A DNA stretch of 64,000 bases, from IMG/VR virus record IMGVR_UViG_3300045995_000378, one strand, 5' to 3'. The position numbers were made by a program, and so were the translations under genes. Position 1 is the first letter of the stretch. Every line of letters starts with the position of its first letter. Below the pieces are notes generated by a model. The model had not been told where the DNA came from and did not search any database. It saw only the letters and a list, made by a program, of their open reading frames with translations. This document shows, piece by piece, positions 1-13,061 of this stretch. Source of the stretch: a virus.

Positions 1-55
1 GTTACGTGGGTTGTCTGGATAGAAAGTATCCCCCTCCCCCCCACTATATGTAATG

Positions 56-69
56 ATATTATATAGTTA
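56..69 (+). repeat. copy 1 of 14-mer ATATTATATAGTTA in the 600-bp non-coding leader
   Basis: exact 14-mer repeated at 329..342; AT-rich, TATA-like. Confidence 0.5.
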
Positions 70-328
70 CAGGTGGTACGTGGTGGGGGAATAGCTGAAT
101 CCTGTCCTCTGCACATACAATGTGTCAAATACGCGTACTTTGGGGAATAGGTTAATGAATATAGGCAGTTGCGTTTTTCACGTGGTTTACATAAGTCGGA
201 AATCGGCATTATACGAGGGCAATATGAGAAAATGGATTGCCTCTGACCTGTGAGAATGACCGGAAATTTTGACCTGGCAGAAGGGTGCCGAGCTATAACA
301 ATAAGGGGAGAAAAATATATTGTGTACA

Positions 329-342
329 ATATTATATAGTTA
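329..342 (+). repeat. copy 2 of 14-mer ATATTATATAGTTA; possible -10 region or operator upstream of early plus-strand genes
   Basis: exact repeat of 56..69; TTGTGT-N17-TAAATT context. Confidence 0.4.
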
Positions 343-600
343 TAAATTATTATCGATTATCGTGGCGGGTGGCATGGATCATGCTCTAGATATAGCAGAC
401 AAGCAGGCAACTAAACCACTAACAGGAGGGCAGGCAAATGAAATTAAGCGAGATAGCAATCAACCAGTGTAAAACAGGGACCACCTGCCAGGGATGCCCG
501 GCGCATAACACGCCACAGTGTAACACCATAGCAGTATTGGCAATGATAAGACGTACTAATGATAAATGATAGCACTACTTAATAATAGGAGGCAAGTATC

Positions 601-798
601 ATGGATACAATGATCATCATGGCAGAGCGACAGGATAACGGTAAGTACATAATGACAGCCGATAACGGCGAGTTGCCGCAAGAGGGTAATGAGCACAACA
701 GCAAGCAGTCTGTATATAAGGATTGCAAGGCAATGTATGAGGGCGCAACATGGCAAGGGCGCAAAGTACATAGTGGATATCGGATAGTGATAGATTAG
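601..798 (+). CDS. hypothetical early protein (65 aa)
   Basis: ORF with AGGAGG SD 8 nt upstream. Confidence 0.55.
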   Translation: MDTMIIMAERQDNGKYIMTADNGELPQEGNEHNSKQSVYKDCKAMYEGATWQGRKVHSGYRIVID

Positions 799-847
799 CT
801 TAATCCTTTTACCCTGCTCTATCGCAAGGGCATAACTTGAAAGGGGT

Positions 848-1030
848 ATGATTATGAAATGCAATCAATGCGAAGCTGCTATGATTAACGGGATTTTTTG
901 TCATGAGCACGGATGTCCGAACTCAAGAAAAATCTACTCAGAGGAATCAGGACAATGGGAAAGAACCTTTACGTGCTCTTACTGTGGATATGAATATCCA
1001 GAGGATGAAACTTGTTGCGAGAAAGATTAA
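848..1030 (+). CDS. Cys-rich zinc-ribbon protein (60 aa)
   Basis: CxxC...HEHGC...CxxC pattern; GAAAGGGG SD. Confidence 0.55.
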   Translation: MIMKCNQCEAAMINGIFCHEHGCPNSRKIYSEESGQWERTFTCSYCGYEYPEDETCCEKD

Positions 1031-1131
1031 CATACTATCAACAAGATGCAAGCGATTAAATAAGTAGACATACTGGCGGGCATACCGGGAACGAGGGCAT
1101 ACCATCAACTGAACTATAGGAGGGCATACCA

Positions 1132-1329
1132 ATGAGGCAGACAATTAGTAATGATTTCCATAACATGAAAATTACCATTAACAAAACAGACAAGCAGTTA
1201 GACGCTATCTCATACCGGATATATAGTGGCACTGCAAGCAAGGCAGATAAGGCATACCGGCGAAAATTGCATAATGCCTTATGCGGGAGTGATGAGTGTA
1301 CCTGTGGCGATGATTTTGGCAGGCGGTAA
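1132..1329 (+). CDS. hypothetical early protein (65 aa)
   Basis: AGGAGGGCATACCA-ATG context. Confidence 0.5.
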   Translation: MRQTISNDFHNMKITINKTDKQLDAISYRIYSGTASKADKAYRRKLHNALCGSDECTCGDDFGRR

Positions 1330-1382
1330 TAGCGGTAATAGCTAACATACCAACAACTTTAATTAATTGAAAGGAGAACAAT

Positions 1383-1637
1383 ATGAAAAGGAACTATCAG
1401 GAACTAATCACACGAAAACAGCGGGAACATGGGGCAAAGTTTGACACTTCGGATCTTAACCAAGAATTTATTAAGCACTACGAATCAGGGGAAAGGGTAA
1501 CAGTAAACTTTGGATATGAGAAAAAACGGGGGACAATAGGAGTCACTACCGGGTGGAAACCTTGTTTTTTGCTTATGCTGAGGAGTAACTCCAGAGGGTC
1601 CAGTTATACTATCGGGAAAAATGACAAGGTTGTTTAA
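1383..1637 (+). CDS. hypothetical early protein (84 aa)
   Basis: AAAGGAGAACAAT-ATG SD. Confidence 0.55.
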   Translation: MKRNYQELITRKQREHGAKFDTSDLNQEFIKHYESGERVTVNFGYEKKRGTIGVTTGWKPCFLLMLRSNSRGSSYTIGKNDKVV

Positions 1638-1671
1638 TAGCATACCAACAACGATGAAAGGGGTACATACC

Positions 1672-1881
1672 ATGACTAACAATGAAGCAAAAAAGATCAT
1701 AAGCAACAAACTTAATGAACTTAACCTCCCAGCTTTTAAACTTACCGCAAAAACGATTGACTTTACGGACCTGGCGAGAGCAAGCAAGCTGTTCGTCAAA
1801 ATTCACGGTTGGAAACCATCGCCATTATGGGTTGACCTCCAGAAAACAGCAAAGGAAAACGGGTTTTTAATCCAAGATTAA
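1672..1881 (+). CDS. hypothetical early protein (start trimmed to the ATG after GAAAGGGG SD)
   Basis: SD GAAAGGGGTACATACC-ATG; track ORF 1621..1881 is extended upstream. Confidence 0.5.
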   Translation: MTNNEAKKIISNKLNELNLPAFKLTAKTIDFTDLARASKLFVKIHGWKPSPLWVDLQKTAKENGFLIQD

Positions 1882-1912
1882 ACATACCATCAACCATAAA
1901 GGAGTGCATACC

Positions 1913-2233
1913 ATGACAAAGCAAGAAAGAATTGATTCATTACTACCTGAGGGCATACCAAAGTGGATCAGAGCATTTGACAATGGCGGGAAAACTTTTG
2001 ACCGTTATACGGTAATATTTTCACATACTCACAGCTTTGGACTGAGAGGCTATACGGTGGGTGTGGGAATGTCGGAAAATCCCTTTCATCCGCAGGGGTT
2101 CGGTCAACACTTCGAGTATAAACGCCAGGACTATAACGGGCGGAGTGGCGGAAAGAGAATCACGTTTCAGGAATTGCCGGAAAAGTGCCGGGAACTGGTT
2201 TTATCGGATTATAAGGATTATTGGAAATTGTAA
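1913..2233 (+). CDS. hypothetical early protein (106 aa)
   Basis: AAAGGAGTGCATACC-ATG; track ORF starts 9 nt earlier. Confidence 0.55.
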   Translation: MTKQERIDSLLPEGIPKWIRAFDNGGKTFDRYTVIFSHTHSFGLRGYTVGVGMSENPFHPQGFGQHFEYKRQDYNGRSGGKRITFQELPEKCRELVLSDYKDYWKL

Positions 2234-2272
2234 AATATCAACATACCATCAAACTTAACAGGAGGTTACAAA

Positions 2273-2419
2273 ATAGAATTTCTAAAATGTAAGCGGTGTA
2301 CTTATGAATGGTTGCCGAGGCCGAGGTTCAAGGGGGAGAAGCCTAAGCAGTGCCCGAGGTGTAAACAATTGACCTGGGAAACGGGACTATTACCACGGAT
2401 TAAACGGGAAAAGGAATAA
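2273..2419 (+). CDS. candidate zinc-ribbon protein (CKRC...CPRC); no ATG/GTG/TTG start, in frame directly after the TAA of the upstream gene
   Basis: AGGAGG SD 7 nt before an ATA codon; paralogous to the minus-strand zinc ribbon at 14753..14896. Confidence 0.35.
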   Translation: MEFLKCKRCTYEWLPRPRFKGEKPKQCPRCKQLTWETGLLPRIKREKE

Positions 2420-2462
2420 TTAAGCATACCATCAACAGACATACCATAGGAGGAATTGAAAA

Positions 2463-2690
2463 ATGGAAATCATTGGATATTATGATCTTGACGGGTATAG
2501 GATAGAAGACAACCTTGACGGTGAAATATTATATGAGGCCGGGAATAATCCGCTTGAGAGTACAAGCCACGTTGACCATGCAGACGGATTGCCGATTGAA
2601 AAGATTATTGAATACTGCATATTGACAGGGCAGGAAATGGCAGAGGAATTGAAAGCGGAGTTTAAAGGAGCGTATTTGATTGAGGAATAA
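2463..2690 (+). CDS. hypothetical early protein (75 aa, acidic)
   Basis: ATAGGAGGAATTGAAAA-ATG. Confidence 0.55.
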   Translation: MEIIGYYDLDGYRIEDNLDGEILYEAGNNPLESTSHVDHADGLPIEKIIEYCILTGQEMAEELKAEFKGAYLIEE

Positions 2691-2751
2691 ACAAGCATAC
2701 CAGAGGCGGGAATATATCAACATACCATCAACAAATCGAAAGGGGTTTATT

Positions 2752-2940
2752 ATGAAAATCACGGTTACAGTACCACCGACAAATGAGCAGGGAAGTTATA
2801 AAACCATAGTCAAGGGTTCGTATTTGCAGACATACCGGGCAGAGGCTTTGCAAGATTATAATTCAGCACGCGCTCATGATGGACTTGAACCACTGCGGAG
2901 AATGCCAAAGGGGACGACATACCAGAGAGCGGCTTTATAA
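2752..2940 (+). CDS. hypothetical early protein (start trimmed)
   Basis: GAAAGGGGTTTATT-ATG. Confidence 0.5.
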   Translation: MKITVTVPPTNEQGSYKTIVKGSYLQTYRAEALQDYNSARAHDGLEPLRRMPKGTTYQRAAL

Positions 2941-2986
2941 CATACCGGATTTTATAACATACCAGACGACGAAAGGGGAATAAATC

Positions 2987-5227
2987 ATGGTTTACAATAT
3001 CAATTTCGCAACGGGGAAATTAGAGGCTATAGATTGCAGCGATAAGAATAATTTGCCAGTGGGGACGGTACTTCACATGCACGGGTATAATGAGCCGGAG
3101 TATGTGATCGTTGAGAAGGTGGGTATTGATACCAAATACGGGACCGGCGCGAAATATCGGACTTTAAATATTGATGATCTAATCTATAGCCAAAAAGAGG
3201 CAAGCGGCCTTATGTGGCTGAAGGATAAGAAAAGCGATATGATTCAGACCTATATCACGGAAAGGGTATTGACGGTTGAACAGGTCCGGGAACTGGTTAG
3301 CAAGGCGGATGTTAAAAAGTTAGCGTCTGACACATACCGGGCCAATGCTGAGATTGAACGGGCACGGCTGGAAACCATAGGCAGGGAACTGTTCAAGAAG
3401 CACATACCAGAAAGTGCACAGGCTCTAATTGTTGCGGAATGTCATAAGGACGAAAGTAACATGATGGAGGATTACCACGGGCATACCACGAAAGCCACTG
3501 TGATTATCGGGTATAGTATGCACAAAAAAGACCTATTTTCCGAAATGAGAAAGGCAGCGGCTCGCATACCGGAAACGGCACACCTGGGGCCGGGGAAGGG
3601 GCACTTTGAGCCACGGGTAATAATTGGACAGGATTTCCAGAGCAACGGGTCGTTTTATCACAAGGGGTCATATTCGCATTGGCACCAGAAATTGACAGAG
3701 GATGAAAGCCGGGCCGGATATAACAGGGGCTTTGTATTCCCTACAATGGCGGAGGCTCAGGCTTTTATTGATAGCAAGGGGCCTGCATACCCGATATCAT
3801 TTGACGGTGTGAGCATACTCTTTGAATGGGATATAGTGGAAAGTAAGATCGAACATCGGGAGAAGTATTCAATGGGGGCGGGGTATTACCTGAAAGATGG
3901 GCATAGTAATTCCAGCGGGTGGGCTGTGTCAAAGGAAACAAGGTATCGGGACCAGTGGCCGAGCAACTTCTATGTGGCTATGGCTGAAAGGTGCATATTT
4001 GAGACAGCCGCACCCATACCGCCAACACCCACCAAGAAGCAGGATCTAGAGCATACGACCGACACGACCACGACCGCACCGGCGACACATACCGAGGGCG
4101 TAACCGTAACCAAAAATGTTGAGAAGTCCGGGATTGAAATCAGGTTCCCGAATAAACCAGCCGTTACAATTCTTAATAATCTCAAAGCTCACGGGTGGAG
4201 GTGGACTAATTACGGCGGGTGCTGGTATCATAAGGACACGCCGGACAATTGGACTTTTGCGCAGACCTTCACGGGTCAGGATATATCGGAAAGCATACCG
4301 ACCGACACGACAGCGGAACCCATACCGGCCACCATACTGCAACGGACAACCTCAGACATCCCCGCTAAACTCCGCACCTTAGCCGATGAGATGGAAAAGA
4401 CTATTGATGGAAAAATGAACAGTGCAACCAGTCAACAGAATCCGACACGGCGACGATTAGCAATGGCGGAGGGTATGCGTAAAGATGGGGAGAATTTGCA
4501 AAAGGTGCAGTTTTTGCTTAGGGCATTGGCAGATATGCACGAGGCCGGGACCGTGCCGCTTGAACTGGCAAAGGTCACATCAAAGGCCGCCGCCCAGGTT
4601 GCCTTGACTGGTTGGGGCGGGGATAAAATCCAGGCCGCTGTTGACATTGCCAATGGTAAGCCGCCCGAAGATGCAAAGGCTAAGACGCTAAGGGACTTGG
4701 ACCGGGAGCTTATAGGGTGCAAGATACCGGGGTTTTTCATCACGCCGAAAAATGTTGCCGCTCAGGTGATTGAACTGGCAGACATACGGGAAGGCATGGA
4801 GGTCTTGGAACCATCAGCAGGCCGAGGCGATATTGCCGAGCTTGTCAACCACGGTTCACATTTAACCTGCATTGAGTACCAGCAGAAATTGGCGGGCATA
4901 CTGGATCTGAAGGGGTTTAATACGATTTGTGGGGACTTTTTGGAGCATACCGGGAGTTATGACCGCATCTGCCAAAATCCACCCTTCGAGAATTTTCAAG
5001 ACATTTCCCATGTCCGCCATGCCTTTGATTGCCTTAAACCTGGGGGCCGTCTGGTTTCAATCATGGGTGAAAGTGCCTTCTTCCGTCAAGACCGCATACC
5101 GACCGAGTTCAGAGAATGGCTTGACGATAAGGGGGCCGAGGTCATTGATTTACCAGCGGGGAGCTTTCAAGGAACTATCACCAGCACAGGAGTTAAGGCA
5201 CGTATAGTGATTATTGACAAGGATTAG
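2987..5227 (+). CDS. 746-aa multidomain early protein; N-terminal and central regions unknown with Thr/Pro-rich linkers; C-terminal gamma-class N6-adenine DNA methyltransferase domain
   Basis: motif I VLEPSAGRGDI followed ~50 aa later by motif IV NPPFE; SD GAAAGGGGAATAAATC-ATG; 11 internal CATACC copies. Confidence 0.6.
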   Translation: MVYNINFATGKLEAIDCSDKNNLPVGTVLHMHGYNEPEYVIVEKVGIDTKYGTGAKYRTLNIDDLIYSQKEASGLMWLKDKKSDMIQTYITERVLTVEQVRELVSKADVKKLASDTYRANAEIERARLETIGRELFKKHIPESAQALIVAECHKDESNMMEDYHGHTTKATVIIGYSMHKKDLFSEMRKAAARIPETAHLGPGKGHFEPRVIIGQDFQSNGSFYHKGSYSHWHQKLTEDESRAGYNRGFVFPTMAEAQAFIDSKGPAYPISFDGVSILFEWDIVESKIEHREKYSMGAGYYLKDGHSNSSGWAVSKETRYRDQWPSNFYVAMAERCIFETAAPIPPTPTKKQDLEHTTDTTTTAPATHTEGVTVTKNVEKSGIEIRFPNKPAVTILNNLKAHGWRWTNYGGCWYHKDTPDNWTFAQTFTGQDISESIPTDTTAEPIPATILQRTTSDIPAKLRTLADEMEKTIDGKMNSATSQQNPTRRRLAMAEGMRKDGENLQKVQFLLRALADMHEAGTVPLELAKVTSKAAAQVALTGWGGDKIQAAVDIANGKPPEDAKAKTLRDLDRELIGCKIPGFFITPKNVAAQVIELADIREGMEVLEPSAGRGDIAELVNHGSHLTCIEYQQKLAGILDLKGFNTICGDFLEHTGSYDRICQNPPFENFQDISHVRHAFDCLKPGGRLVSIMGESAFFRQDRIPTEFREWLDDKGAEVIDLPAGSFQGTITSTGVKARIVIIDKD

Positions 5228-5277
5228 CATACCGGACATACCGGGAACTTTAACGCATACCATGAAAGGGGCATACC

Positions 5278-5463
5278 ATGATTAAGATAGGCAATGAAAA
5301 ACTGTTCACCATGACGGAGTTACTGGAGAATTTAGTAGAAGATATCAAGACAAGCGAGTTAGATGCTGAGGTGGTAGAGATAGCATTTATCACGGTGGGG
5401 AATATCATCGGAGAATCGGCGGATTTTGTGCGCGGATTCGTAACGAGTAGAAGGGAGGGGTGA
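5278..5463 (+). CDS. hypothetical early protein (61 aa)
   Basis: GAAAGGGGCATACC-ATG. Confidence 0.5.
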   Translation: MIKIGNEKLFTMTELLENLVEDIKTSELDAEVVEIAFITVGNIIGESADFVRGFVTSRREG

Positions 5464-5466
5464 AAA

Positions 5467-5721
5467 ATGGAAAATGTAGGATGCAAAAAAATCATAGGTG
5501 GCTATCCAAAGTATATCGTGTTACATGAGGACGGATGCTGCGGACATAAACACCGGAGCTTAAACAATGCCATGAAATGCTATGACCATTATGACCTGAC
5601 AAGCAATGTCGTGATGGTAACGCTATCGAAAGAATGCAGCAAAGTCGATACGCTGTGGATTGACCATTGCCTGCTGAAACATACCTCGGTGAGGGAGATG
5701 GCGGAAGTATTGGAGGCTTAA
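5467..5721 (+). CDS. Cys/His-rich early protein (84 aa)
   Basis: GGAGGGGGTGAAAA-ATG. Confidence 0.5.
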   Translation: MENVGCKKIIGGYPKYIVLHEDGCCGHKHRSLNNAMKCYDHYDLTSNVVMVTLSKECSKVDTLWIDHCLLKHTSVREMAEVLEA

Positions 5722-5748
5722 TAAACGACATACAAGGAGGTGCATACC

Positions 5749-5958
5749 ATGTTGAATAAGATTAAAGTTTATACTGAGGTTGGCGCAAAGGCGGGACGGG
5801 CAAGAAAGCATCACGACGAAGCGACGGCGCGAAGCCATATTGACTGGTTCAGGCGGGCCGTGAGACTGGAAGCCGATACTGACCTTGCGGAAATAACCGA
5901 GGCTTTTAATGCCGCATACCGGGAGGAGGCCACGCCTTCAGTTAGGGGGATGATATGA
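5749..5958 (+). CDS. hypothetical early protein (69 aa)
   Basis: AAGGAGGTGCATACC-ATG; overlaps the next gene by ATGA. Confidence 0.55.
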   Translation: MLNKIKVYTEVGAKAGRARKHHDEATARSHIDWFRRAVRLEADTDLAEITEAFNAAYREEATPSVRGMI

Positions 5959-6146
5959 GCCGGGCACTGGAAATCAAATATATCGGCGCGGTTGCTTTGC
6001 TCGGCAGGCTATCACCGCAAATCAGGGACGATGACGACCGTTATTGTATAAAGCAGGCGATGGACGACCTGCTGGCTGAGATGCCGGGACGGTTTGAAAT
6101 CTGGAAAGTGTCGGGCGGGTTTTCGCTTGAACCAAAACGGGATTGA
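5955..6146 (+). CDS. hypothetical early protein (63 aa)
   Basis: ATGA overlap with the upstream gene. Confidence 0.5.
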   Translation: MSRALEIKYIGAVALLGRLSPQIRDDDDRYCIKQAMDDLLAEMPGRFEIWKVSGGFSLEPKRD

Positions 6147-6168
6147 CATACCACAGGGGGAAGAGACG

Positions 6169-6429
6169 ATGAATTATGACATAGCTTTCGACAATGAACA
6201 CCTGCGTGAAGACCAGGAAATTGAATGGCACCGAGAAAATGCCGAAACCATACTTCCTCCCTCTCTGATCTCCGCTCTAAAACACTCAAACGAGGTGAGA
6301 CAGGCAAGAATCGATAATCTCATGGACGAGAACATAATATTGACCGCCCTGCTGAGTGACATGTGGGAGCGGCGGTACGGGACAACGGAAGGATTTGATA
6401 GCTGGCTGAAAGGGAGGATTGAAAAATGA
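6169..6429 (+). CDS. hypothetical early protein (86 aa, start trimmed)
   Basis: GGGGGAAGAGACG-ATG. Confidence 0.5.
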   Translation: MNYDIAFDNEHLREDQEIEWHRENAETILPPSLISALKHSNEVRQARIDNLMDENIILTALLSDMWERRYGTTEGFDSWLKGRIEK

Positions 6430-6593
6430 GCAAATTTCATGTTGGAGTAGTCTGCGGAATAATTATTGGTATGCTGATCCAATGGTTTGGATACAGTCTT
6501 GCAGAATTATGGAAGGAGTTGTCGAAAAACAAGAAAGCTAAAAAGAATAGCCTAGCATACCGGCGGGCGCTGAAGGAAAAATATGATTTATAG
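6426..6593 (+). CDS. small membrane protein (55 aa), not in the ORF track
   Basis: ATGA overlap with upstream stop; AGGGAGG SD; one hydrophobic helix then a basic tail. Confidence 0.5.
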   Translation: MSKFHVGVVCGIIIGMLIQWFGYSLAELWKELSKNKKAKKNSLAYRRALKEKYDL

Positions 6594-6626
6594 ACATACT
6601 GCATACCATCAAGAACGGAGATAACT

Positions 6627-6710
6627 ATGGAAGCGTTTGGAATCTGGATAGCGATAATGTCGGTAGCAACTATCTATCTTTTTAGTCGATGGGATGGAAG
6701 TATGTGGTGA
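6627..6710 (+). CDS. 27-aa hydrophobic peptide, not in the ORF track
   Basis: ACGGAGATAACT-ATG; single transmembrane-like segment. Confidence 0.35.
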   Translation: MEAFGIWIAIMSVATIYLFSRWDGSMW

Positions 6711-6791
6711 AAATTTAGACATACCGGAATATCTCGCATACCGGCATACCAGTGGGCTGCGTCACGATAATCGCGGAGAAAGTAGGAAGAA

Positions 6792-7079
6792 ATGGAAAGA
6801 GAACAGGCGATTGCCTTATCAGAAAGTAAGTTTTGGGAGCCAATGTCGTTTCGAGAACGTGCCGTATTCCAGATTAACGAGCATCGTCTATGCATGCCGT
6901 TTGAAGTATTCCATGAAGCGGTGGAAAAGACTCTTGGTAGGCCGGTATTTACTCATGAATTTGGATTGAATTATGAAGGGTTGAAGAATGAAATTAACAA
7001 CGGTGGCCCATCACCAACAATGGAAGAAATAATCAATATGATACCAGAAGATAAAAGAGTGATTGTTGTGGTAGCATAA
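6792..7079 (+). CDS. hypothetical early protein (95 aa), last gene of the plus-strand block
   Basis: protein-like composition; preferred over overlapping ORF 6694..6969. Confidence 0.5.
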   Translation: MEREQAIALSESKFWEPMSFRERAVFQINEHRLCMPFEVFHEAVEKTLGRPVFTHEFGLNYEGLKNEINNGGPSPTMEEIINMIPEDKRVIVVVA

Positions 7080-7093
7080 TCTCGCCCATACCA

Positions 7094-7120
7094 CCCCCGG
7101 ATTGAATGGCGTCTGGGGTA
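7094..7120. terminator. imperfect GC hairpin (CCCCGGA...TCTGGGG) at the convergence point of the two blocks
   Basis: 7-bp stem with one G-U pair, 10-nt loop, no clear U-run. Confidence 0.25.
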
Positions 7121-7138
7121 CATACCAGACATACCACC

Positions 7139-7327
7139 CTAATTAATTCCTATGGCCTCTACACCCTGTTCGATCAGTAACCTGGCCATGGCCGCCTTTT
7201 TGCGTTTGTTCAACTTAGCGATCTGCTCTAACTGGCATACTGTATCATCTGTTAGAACTATAGTCATCACCCTGGATTTGATGGTTGAACGGTCGGTGAA
7301 CTCCGGGCGACCTCGTTTGGTTAACAT
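7139..7327 (-). CDS. ribbon-helix-helix (Arc/CopG-like) DNA-binding protein
   Basis: beta-strand VMTIVL followed by two helices (DDTVCQLEQIAKLNKRKK, AAMARLLIEQGV); GGAGG SD; start trimmed to the ATG at 7325-7327. Confidence 0.5.
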   Translation of the reverse strand: MLTKRGRPEFTDRSTIKSRVMTIVLTDDTVCQLEQIAKLNKRKKAAMARLLIEQGVEAIGIN

Positions 7328-7397
7328 ACCTACCTCCAAAAGTTAATATTGACATACCATCGCATACCACATGCTATAAATATGGCATACCATTGGA

Positions 7398-7429
7398 GGA
7401 TACATATCATAAGATTTAATACCATGTCA
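7398..7429 (-). promoter_or_regulatory. sigma70-like promoter for the RHH gene (TTGACATGGTATTAAATCTTATGATATGT, minus strand)
   Basis: TTGACA -35 box plus conserved TATTAAAT extension shared with three other minus-strand promoters. Confidence 0.45.
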
Positions 7430-7439
7430 AACAATTTTA

Positions 7440-7637
7440 TTATTCATTTTCTAATGCTTCTAGTACCATTTTCCCGTATTCAGATCCGCGCCGGATACGC
7501 TTCACGATATCCAACTTGTCCTTGTAGCATCCGATAATGTCTACCTGATCCTTGTTGATGATAGCCTTGAATGCGATGAACGTCATGCCATTGTGGGAGA
7601 GGATGTGGGTGTTGCCGTATGTCCAAAGCCTTTCCAT
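7440..7637 (-). CDS. hypothetical protein (65 aa)
   Basis: ORF, weak SD. Confidence 0.4.
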   Translation of the reverse strand: MERLWTYGNTHILSHNGMTFIAFKAIINKDQVDIIGCYKDKLDIVKRIRRGSEYGKMVLEALENE

Positions 7638-7743
7638 CTTATTATCTCTTATCTGGTCGCTACATTTACGCTGCGTGCCTTGGCCCGACCTCCCTCCGTT
7701 CCGGGGTCGTGCCGTTCACGCGCTACATTCGCTTGTCTATCAG

Positions 7744-8022
7744 CTACTCATCCCATTCAATAGTAACTTTGGCATCTTCGGGGATATGTCTAACGCTGGG
7801 AAGTTGAAGACCCTTTAATGTTGTTTCGAGTACCTTATGTTCCTTGACAATTTCCCAATCATCGGCAAGGAACCATTCATCATACATATGTCCAACAGTA
7901 TCCGAGAAACTAAATTCATTGGTAAATATTCCTTTAATTTTAATACATTTTTTATCATCGCTACTATTTCTCTTAATTGCCTGCCCGTCCTTTGCCAATT
8001 TCCATGCTTCGATGATGTTCAT
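7744..8022 (-). CDS. hypothetical protein (92 aa)
   Basis: AAAGGAGACTAT-ATG. Confidence 0.5.
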   Translation of the reverse strand: MNIIEAWKLAKDGQAIKRNSSDDKKCIKIKGIFTNEFSFSDTVGHMYDEWFLADDWEIVKEHKVLETTLKGLQLPSVRHIPEDAKVTIEWDE

Positions 8023-8048
8023 GATAGTCTCCTTTTTTGGTTTAGTGG

Positions 8049-8612
8049 CTACTTTTTCACCAACAGCGGCATCACTATAGCAGTGCGGGTTTTAGTGGCA
8101 ATAATCACCGGCTGGTTCTCGCCGTAAATCCGCACGTTCATCAGCTCATTGGAGATAGCGTCTTGGAGTAGCTTGATGTTTACGGGATGATGTTTAAGAA
8201 TCTCAGTGTAGAAGTAAGTAGGATTGGTAATAGCGATTTCATGCTCAGGGGTGTTACCCTCCATGGTTATGACTGGCCTGTTCCAATTGGGAAACAATCT
8301 ATCATCAGAACCATCCGGCTTGGCGATAAGTATTACCTTGGACTGGTTGATAGCGTACACATCATATTCACCACAAGATATACTCGGATAGGGGTTGGTG
8401 ATTAAATGCAGCCTGTGGCCGTCCGTAGCGACTATTTTGGCAGGTTCGACCAGTATGCCGGTTATGGCAGGCCGGGTGATGTCGCGGGATCGAGCCTTGA
8501 ATAGCCATTGGAGGTCGAGAAAGGCGGTGTCGAAACGGGATTTCTTGGTGATTATGTAGAATAGTGCGCCGGGGGTTACAACTTCTTTTGCTGATTCATT
8601 TTCCATTTTCAT
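8049..8612 (-). CDS. DNA polymerase III beta (sliding clamp)-like single-domain protein
   Basis: motif VATDGHRLHLI matches the conserved ATDGHRL of DnaN; only ~187 aa, about one clamp domain. Confidence 0.4.
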   Translation of the reverse strand: MKMENESAKEVVTPGALFYIITKKSRFDTAFLDLQWLFKARSRDITRPAITGILVEPAKIVATDGHRLHLITNPYPSISCGEYDVYAINQSKVILIAKPDGSDDRLFPNWNRPVITMEGNTPEHEIAITNPTYFYTEILKHHPVNIKLLQDAISNELMNVRIYGENQPVIIATKTRTAIVMPLLVKK

Positions 8613-12314: not shown

Positions 12315-13061
12315 TTAACTAAAATCAAATACCGATTGCGATAATCGCTTGACGGCTATCTCGCAGTATTTCTCTTCGATCTCAATACCGATTGCTTTTC
12401 GTCCTAATTGCTTAGCAGCGAAAAGTGTAGTCCCAACACCCATAAATGGGTCAAGAACAACATCCTTATCTTTGGTAAAATAACCTATGAAATAATTACA
12501 CATTGCAATTGGAAAAGTTGCATGGTGCTCTTTGAATGATTCTTTTTTATACCATGTCTTGATATTAGGAACATAACCATTAGAAGGGAAATTGGAATAT
12601 GAGAATACTTTACTTTTATTTTCACCAAGTAAAAAGACAAATTCAAAGCCATTTGCCATTATGGGCGACCCTTGCATGGCGATTTGTTGTGCTACTGCTT
12701 GCTTCTGCCAGATAAAAATATCCTTTATGTTTCCATCAAAGTAGGAAAATATTTTATGTATCACATCTTTGGTGCTCACAATATATTGCATATTCCAAAA
12801 CACATATCGTGATTTCAATAAACATGATTCTATCGCGGCAATAATCATATCCATGTATTGAATTTGGTTAATATTATCTTTATATTCATTGTAATAATTA
12901 TTACCTATTTTAGTTTTGGGATGATATCCTAAATTTTTCTTGCTACTAATGTTATAAGGCGGTGAGGTAAGTACCAAATCCACTGGGGCAAGTTCCGGCA
13001 ATATCTCCCTGCAATCACCATGATAAATTGTAATATTGTCAGATTCGTAATACGGCTTCAT
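12315..13061 (-). CDS. DNA methyltransferase (N4-cytosine/N6-adenine family, pfam01555-like)
   Basis: TSPPYN catalytic motif and C-terminal DPFMGVGTT SAM-binding motif. Confidence 0.8.
   Translation of the reverse strand: MKPYYESDNITIYHGDCREILPELAPVDLVLTSPPYNISSKKNLGYHPKTKIGNNYYNEYKDNINQIQYMDMIIAAIESCLLKSRYVFWNMQYIVSTKDVIHKIFSYFDGNIKDIFIWQKQAVAQQIAMQGSPIMANGFEFVFLLGENKSKVFSYSNFPSNGYVPNIKTWYKKESFKEHHATFPIAMCNYFIGYFTKDKDVVLDPFMGVGTTLFAAKQLGRKAIGIEIEEKYCEIAVKRLSQSVFDFS

What the first reader, a model, noticed from the sequence alone, without database searches (positions are those of the whole stretch)
2987..5227. 746-aa early fusion protein: unknown N-terminal and central domains with Thr/Pro-rich linkers and a C-terminal N6A methyltransferase domain
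This is by far the largest gene of the early block. The methyltransferase domain (motif I EPSAGRGD, motif IV NPPF) is fused to about 550 aa of unassigned sequence with low-complexity linkers (TTDTTTTAPATHTEG, PTDTTAEPIPAT). The architecture recalls multidomain anti-restriction or host-takeover proteins such as the injected methyltransferase fusions of P1 DarB type. The gene carries 11 internal CATACC copies.
Basis: partly seen in the sequence, partly recalled or inferred. Interest (0 to 1): 0.6.

Follow-up and report, generated by a model that had tools for sequence, protein, structure and literature searches.

The report
Early phage methylase fused to unknown domains
This is a real 746-residue early phage protein in which a DNA adenine methyltransferase lacking its own target-recognition domain is fused to three uncharacterised domains, one of them matching no solved structure; it most likely protects incoming phage DNA from host restriction.

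Summary
The ORF at 2987-5227 (+) is real. It has full-length homologues at 53-77% identity and folds confidently (AlphaFold2 mean pLDDT 89.8).

It has five ordered parts:
- D1, a small SH3/Tudor-like barrel (aa 1-94), followed by a 43-residue helix.
- D2, an alpha/beta domain (aa 146-335).
- D3, a 57-residue beta-beta-alpha-beta-beta-alpha domain (aa 373-429).
- D4, a helical domain (aa 458-575).
- D5, a minimal Rossmann methyltransferase (aa 583-746).

The two Thr/Pro-rich stretches are the only disordered segments.

D4-D5 is a gamma-class (EcoKI/TaqI-like) N6-adenine DNA methyltransferase. The TP cap, EPSAGRG and NPPF motifs are intact, and there is no target-recognition domain. Its closest relatives in cultured phages lie inside giant polyvalent proteins. 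A 187-residue homologue sits in IncF plasmid leading regions.

D2 matched nothing in Pfam, PHROGs, NCBIfam, PADLOC, PDB or BFVD. It defines about 1,100 sequence clusters. In 47% of 70 viral loci it is fused to this methyltransferase or lies within 6 kb of it.

P1 DarB is only a remote relative, and the gene's early-block position argues against virion packaging.

The 11 CATACC copies are real (about 1.7 expected), but the motif belongs to the whole early block, not to this gene.

Verdict: a new variant of a known kind.

The parts
2972..2979 (+). Shine-Dalgarno-like AAAGGGGA, 8 nt upstream of the ATG
   Evidence: Read directly from the sequence.
2987..5227 (+). Whole ORF, 746 aa plus stop codon
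   Evidence: Full-length homologues P0001-P0005 and P0008 are 53-77% identical.
2987..3268 (+). D1, aa 1-94: small all-beta SH3/Tudor-like barrel
3275..3403 (+). Single long helix, aa 97-139, joining D1 to D2
   Evidence: DSSP on both models; pLDDT is about 96-98.
3422..3991 (+). D2, aa 146-335: conserved alpha/beta domain with no known relative. The core is about 120 aa.
3587..3850 (+). Insertion within D2, aa 201-288, about 88 residues; absent from the ~660-aa alphaproteobacterial relatives
   Evidence: Alignment A3 and the BLAST coordinates.
4025..4081 (+). Linker 1, aa 347-365: Thr/Pro-rich and disordered
   Evidence: pLDDT below 50. Length varies among homologues, which are 730-811 aa.
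4103..4273 (+). D3, aa 373-429: small beta-beta-alpha-beta-beta-alpha domain with a conserved KP...LK..G(W/F)RW...W pattern
   Evidence: It matches the C-terminal part of phrog_19458 ('primase'), plus phrog_27491 and phrog_6744. It also occurs as stand-alone proteins of 60-120 aa. No Pfam model.
4289..4351 (+). Linker 2, aa 435-455: disordered
   Evidence: pLDDT below 50.
4358..4711 (+). D4, aa 458-575: helical domain N-terminal to the methyltransferase, in the position of HsdM-N or LPD36
   Evidence: Foldseek alignments to HsdM chains span about 360-390 columns, more than the catalytic domain alone. D4-D5 travel together in cyanobacterial plasmid genes that are annotated as type I M subunits.
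4733..5224 (+). D5, aa 583-746: minimal Rossmann N6-adenine methyltransferase domain with no target-recognition domain
4742..4747 (+). TP cap (T586-P587) of the helix that precedes the catalytic core
   Evidence: Conserved in at least 85% of family members. PMC5512222 describes this as a signature of EcoKI/TaqI-like methyltransferases.
4808..4831 (+). Motif I, EPSAGRGD (aa 608-615): SAM binding
   Evidence: LEP.AG.G is conserved in at least 85% of family members.
4976..4987 (+). Motif IV, NPPF (aa 664-667): catalytic
   Evidence: NPPFE is conserved in at least 85% of family members.

Best explanation
The gene encodes an early-expressed orphan DNA N6-adenine methyltransferase. Its catalytic unit (D4-D5) is gamma-class and EcoKI/TaqI-like. 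It has no target-recognition domain and no specificity subunit, so it probably methylates adenines with little or short sequence specificity.

Made soon after the leading genome end enters the cell, it would methylate the phage's own DNA and blunt host restriction. The same role is assigned to orphan methyltransferases in plasmid leading regions and to the methyltransferase domains of polyvalent proteins.

The N-terminal module (D1, helix, D2, D3) is tethered by two flexible linkers. It is a recurrent partner of this methyltransferase clade. I infer that it positions or regulates the enzyme: the mildly basic D3 and D4 would contact nucleic acid, and the acidic-to-neutral D1-D2 would bind a host or phage protein or a small ligand.

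Shown: the fold, the motifs, the domain boundaries, the family distribution and the D2-methyltransferase linkage. Inferred: DNA as substrate, low specificity, anti-restriction function, early expression, and any role for D1-D3.
For: Fold and motifs:
- AF2 mean pLDDT is 89.8.
- Best PDB matches are HsdM (2okc, 2ar0), PacII M, M.TaqI and M.BseCI.
- The TP cap, LEPxAGxG, motif II E, DF and NPPFE are each conserved in at least 85% of family members.
- PADLOC gives mad2 at 1e-16 and type II methyltransferase models.
- PHROG 'DNA methyltransferase' families match at E 1e-71.

No target-recognition domain:
- Only 162 residues follow the TP cap.
- The IncF homologue is 187 aa in total.
- No hsdS-like neighbour is present.

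Anti-restriction context:
- More than 5,000 plasmids, mostly conjugative IncF types from Klebsiella and E. coli, carry the homologue. In the one plasmid inspected, it lies a few kb from an annotated antirestriction gene.
- Orphan methyltransferases are among the families most enriched in plasmid leading regions (PMC11541004).
- PMC5512222 interprets the polyvalent-protein methyltransferases as anti-restriction.

Early position:
- The gene is co-oriented with 15 small ORFs at the left end of the window.
- An independent assembly contig starts at the same base as the window.
- The related phage contig L004 has the same layout.

Coupling of D2 to the methyltransferase:
- Of 70 IMG/VR loci with D2, 23 have it fused to D5 and 10 more have a separate D5 ORF on the same strand within 6 kb, in several cases directly downstream.
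- Only 230 of 50,697 deposited phage genomes carry this methyltransferase.
- Long D2 proteins carry this methyltransferase or a DUF4942-type one.

Charge:
- Family median pI is 8.2 for D3 and 9.1 for D4, against 5.7 for D1 and 6.3 for D2.
Against: - No biochemical data exist for any member of this clade, so the substrate and the specificity are inferences.
- Foldseek also returns RNA methyltransferases (TrmN, PH1948, DIMT1) with similar E-values. Pfam and NCBIfam give weak sub-threshold hits to rRNA adenine dimethylases.
- About half of the D2 loci have no methyltransferase within 6 kb, so D2 must also work alone. The fusion could therefore be a polyvalent-style juxtaposition of independent effectors.
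- D2's invariant polar cluster looks more like an active or ligand-binding site than a passive adaptor.
- The phage has a second DNA methyltransferase at 12315-13061, so protection need not depend on this one.
- Early timing is inferred from gene order only. The promoter scan was at background level.
Confidence: 0.6

Rival explanations
1. It is a DarB-like protein that is packaged in the virion and injected with the DNA, where it methylates or shields that DNA in cis.
For: The closest homologues of the methyltransferase part in cultured phages are internal domains of proteins of 2,715 aa (NVP1211A_14) and 2,631 aa (BA3_0002), encoded by phage genomes of about 37 kb. It matches PHROGs built from 1,400-3,900-residue proteins. 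DarB's N-terminal methyltransferase aligns over 180 residues and shares the TPK, LEPSAGTG and KPGG motifs.
Against: Identity to DarB is only 26%, with a pairwise E of 1e-3. The SF2 helicase that defines the methyltransferase-helicase dyad is absent. The gene lies in a block of small co-oriented genes at the genome end, far from the tape-measure and connector genes at 35-54 kb. P1 darB, in contrast, sits beside the portal gene.
Confidence: 0.12
2. It is a polyvalent juxtaposition of independent effectors. D1-D2, with or without D3, is a separate anti-defence or host-takeover effector, possibly an enzyme, that happens to share a polypeptide with an anti-restriction methyltransferase.
For: D2 occurs alone, or as D1-D2 or D1-D2-D3, in most family members. 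D2 has an invariant cluster of charged and aromatic residues, typical of an active or ligand-binding site. The D3-D4-D5 cassette also pairs with a different N-terminal domain, LPD29, in P0013. The long disordered linkers suggest the parts act independently. This is the logic proposed for polyvalent proteins in PMC5512222.
Against: D2's fusion partners are almost only adenine methyltransferases, with one PAPS-reductase exception. Split versions keep the methyltransferase directly downstream. That pattern is stronger than expected for unrelated effectors.
Confidence: 0.2
3. It is a regulatory or epigenetic methyltransferase. It marks specific sites, for example the early-block motif RCATACCR, to time transcription, replication or packaging rather than to evade restriction.
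For: The early block carries 51 + strand CATACC copies, and each copy contains two adenines. Asymmetric sites methylated on one strand are known for type III and type IIS enzymes (established knowledge).
Against: Homologues at 53% identity (L005), at 52-67% over the aligned segments (L001/L002) and in Mesorhizobium (L003) sit in DNA with no motif enrichment. Motif density inside the gene is lower than in the rest of the block. The enzyme has no target-recognition domain that could read an 8-mer.
Confidence: 0.05
4. It is an RNA or protein methyltransferase that modifies host rRNA, tRNA or a protein during takeover.
For: Weak sub-threshold hits to RrnaAD, Erm and KsgA models. TrmN, PH1948 and DIMT1 are among the Foldseek matches. 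NPPF-type motifs also occur in some RNA and protein glutamine methyltransferases (established knowledge).
Against: The top structural matches, and the only ones that also cover the N-terminal helical domain, are DNA m6A enzymes. The TP cap together with NPP(Y/F) is the EcoKI/TaqI signature. The strongest profile hits are DNA methyltransferase families.
Confidence: 0.03

Closest known systems
Methyltransferase domains of phage and plasmid polyvalent proteins (Iyer, Burroughs, Anand, de Souza, Aravind 2017, PMC5512222), e.g. Vibrio phage 1.211.A NVP1211A_14 and Thalassomonas phage BA3_0002
   Same: Same methyltransferase clade: 47% and 36% identity, and PHROG E-values of 1e-59 to 1e-74. Both have the gamma-class TP cap and NPPF, a helical domain N-terminal to the methyltransferase, a multidomain polypeptide with flexible linkers, and a phage setting.
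   Different: This protein is 746 aa rather than 1,400-3,900 aa. It has no SF2 helicase, zincin protease or other hub domains. Its N-terminal domains D1-D3 match none of the LPD models in Pfam. It is encoded in an early block rather than as a giant putative ejection protein.
187-aa 'class I SAM-dependent methyltransferase' of IncF plasmid leading regions (e.g. WP_001348621.1 on pM217_FII)
   Same: 33% identity over 160 residues, E 3e-21. It shares the FVTP, EPSAGTG and NPPF motifs and also lacks a target-recognition domain. It is encoded in the region of a mobile element that enters first, near antirestriction genes.
   Different: The plasmid protein is the bare catalytic domain. Its upstream neighbour is a DUF3560 protein with no significant similarity to D1-D4. 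As far as my searches showed, it is also uncharacterised.
Phage P1 DarB
   Same: It has a gamma-class adenine methyltransferase domain with the TPK and LEPSAGTG motifs, and it acts in anti-restriction.
   Different: Identity is 26% (E 1e-3). DarB is 2,255 aa, with the methyltransferase at the N terminus followed by a helicase, and its motif IV reads NVPF. The gene lies beside the portal gene and the protein is a virion component.
M.EcoGIX and M.BceJIII, single-strand-specific plasmid methyltransferases (PMC7736820)
   Same: A working analogy: an orphan, promiscuous (SAY context) m6A enzyme expressed from the first-entering DNA, protecting against restriction and depending on association with a host protein, PolI.
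   Different: These belong to a different family: beta-class with a DPPY motif IV. There is no homology beyond the shared Rossmann fold.
Type I restriction-modification M subunits (HsdM: EcoKI, StySJI)
   Same: They are the best structural matches, and the match includes a helical N-terminal domain plus the catalytic domain.
   Different: No HsdS or HsdR partner is present, sequence identity is 13-17%, and the catalytic domain is much shorter.

Membership tests
Gamma-class (EcoKI/TaqI-like) N6-adenine DNA methyltransferases | Class I Rossmann SAM-methyltransferase fold | tested here: met
   The AF2 model has pLDDT above 90 over aa 588-746. Foldseek gives probability 1.00 to HsdM, M.TaqI and M.BseCI.
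Gamma-class (EcoKI/TaqI-like) N6-adenine DNA methyltransferases | Motif I (SAM binding) precedes motif IV, which reads NPP(Y/F) | tested here: met
   EPSAGRG is at aa 608-614 and NPPF at aa 664-667. Both are conserved in at least 85% of family members.
Gamma-class (EcoKI/TaqI-like) N6-adenine DNA methyltransferases | [quoted passage not shown] | tested here: met
   T586-P587 are followed by helix 588-598. The feature is described in PMC5512222.
Gamma-class (EcoKI/TaqI-like) N6-adenine DNA methyltransferases | A target-recognition domain or a separate specificity subunit | tested here: not met
   The protein ends 79 residues after NPPF. No HsdS-like ORF is nearby.
Gamma-class (EcoKI/TaqI-like) N6-adenine DNA methyltransferases | m6A formation on DNA | not testable with these tools
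   This needs a methylome or an in vitro assay.
Polyvalent proteins (PMC5512222) | Two or more unrelated domains in one polypeptide of a phage or conjugative element | tested here: met
   Five ordered segments in a phage context.
Polyvalent proteins (PMC5512222) | The methyltransferase belongs to the clade found in polyvalent proteins | tested here: met
   It matches phrog_18947, phrog_15406, phrog_22901 and phrog_11358 (profiles of 1,394-3,431 positions) at E 1e-58 to 1e-74. It is 47% identical to a domain inside a 2,715-aa Vibrio phage protein.
Polyvalent proteins (PMC5512222) | Methyltransferase fused at its C terminus to an SF2 (SWI2/SNF2) helicase | tested here: not met
   The methyltransferase is the C-terminal domain and there are no helicase hits.
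Polyvalent proteins (PMC5512222) | LPD36 (four helices with a GXGU motif) N-terminal to the methyltransferase | tested here: inconclusive
   D4 is helical, and the query has GWGG (aa 543-546) between two helices. Only the first G is conserved across the family, and no LPD36 model was available.
Polyvalent proteins (PMC5512222) | Delivered into the cell together with the DNA | not testable with these tools
   Gene position in an early-type block argues against it. Virion proteomics is needed.
P1 DarB type | Close sequence relationship and the same architecture (N-terminal methyltransferase, helicase, over 2,000 aa) | tested here: not met
   26% identity over 182 columns, E 1e-3. The architecture differs.
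M.EcoGIX/M.BceJIII family | Beta-class motif order with DPPY as motif IV | tested here: not met
   The query is gamma-class with NPPF. The family description comes from PMC7736820.
D2 family (unnamed, defined here) | Core pattern IVAE...D.SD..(T/S)DY...S.H.RD.F.EMRKAA...EHREKYSMG.GYYLK...GW.V.K | tested here: met
   The query matches the profile. There are 1,107 clusters at E<=1e-3 and 463 at E<=1e-30.

The most novel reading that the evidence does not exclude
The D1-D2-D3 module is a previously unrecognised obligate partner of methyltransferases that lack a target-recognition domain. One possibility is a new kind of targeting or specificity module that stands in for HsdS or a target-recognition domain. 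Another is a coupling device that ties methylation to a host machine, as PolI association does for M.EcoGIX. D2 would be a new fold carrying a conserved D/Y/E/R/H active or binding site. The family would then define a new two-part anti-restriction system that is widespread in uncultivated phages and alphaproteobacterial prophages.
Probability: 0.3. Interest if true: 0.65.

Novelty: new variant of a known kind. Interest (0 to 1): 0.45.

Why it matters
Orphan methyltransferases are a main route by which phages and plasmids escape restriction. Most studied examples carry their own target-recognition domain or rely on a known partner.

This clade has neither. It is present in more than 5,000 sequenced plasmids, mostly from Klebsiella and Escherichia, as well as in phages, and as far as I could find none of its members has been characterised.

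The recurrent fusion or adjacency to D2, a domain with no structural or sequence relative, gives a concrete testable handle on how such minimal enzymes find their substrate. Alternatively it points to a new anti-defence activity.

If the enzyme proves non-specific, it could also be useful as a footprinting reagent, in the way M.EcoGII and Hia5 are used.

Tried and rejected
Domain searches that found nothing:
- Pfam, NCBIfam, PADLOC and PHROGs gave no hit for D1 or D2. D3 matched only three PHROGs. D4 had no Pfam hit above noise.
- A profile search of PDB sequences with the D2 alignment gave nothing at E<=10.
- tblastn of aa 1-345 against 50,697 phage genomes gave no match.
- Megablast of the gene and of 24 kb of the window against phages gave no match, so the phage has no close relative in that collection.

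Structure searches:
- Foldseek against AFDB50 was unavailable on the machine.

Ideas tested and dropped:
- D3 equals LPD26: rejected. In P0411 the D3 match is aa 2-50 and LPD26 is aa 57-93, so they are adjacent, not the same.
- D3 or D1-D2 is related to the IncF DUF3560 protein: rejected. No significant BLAST hit was found, and the D3 profile scores only 3.4 bits.
- The methyltransferase is homologous to M.EcoGIX: rejected, because that enzyme is beta-class with DPPY.
- The enzyme targets CATACC: rejected as the main reading.

Scans that led nowhere:
- A scan of viral contigs for three clustered CATACC copies was too unspecific.
- The promoter and terminator scan of 1-8200 was at background level.
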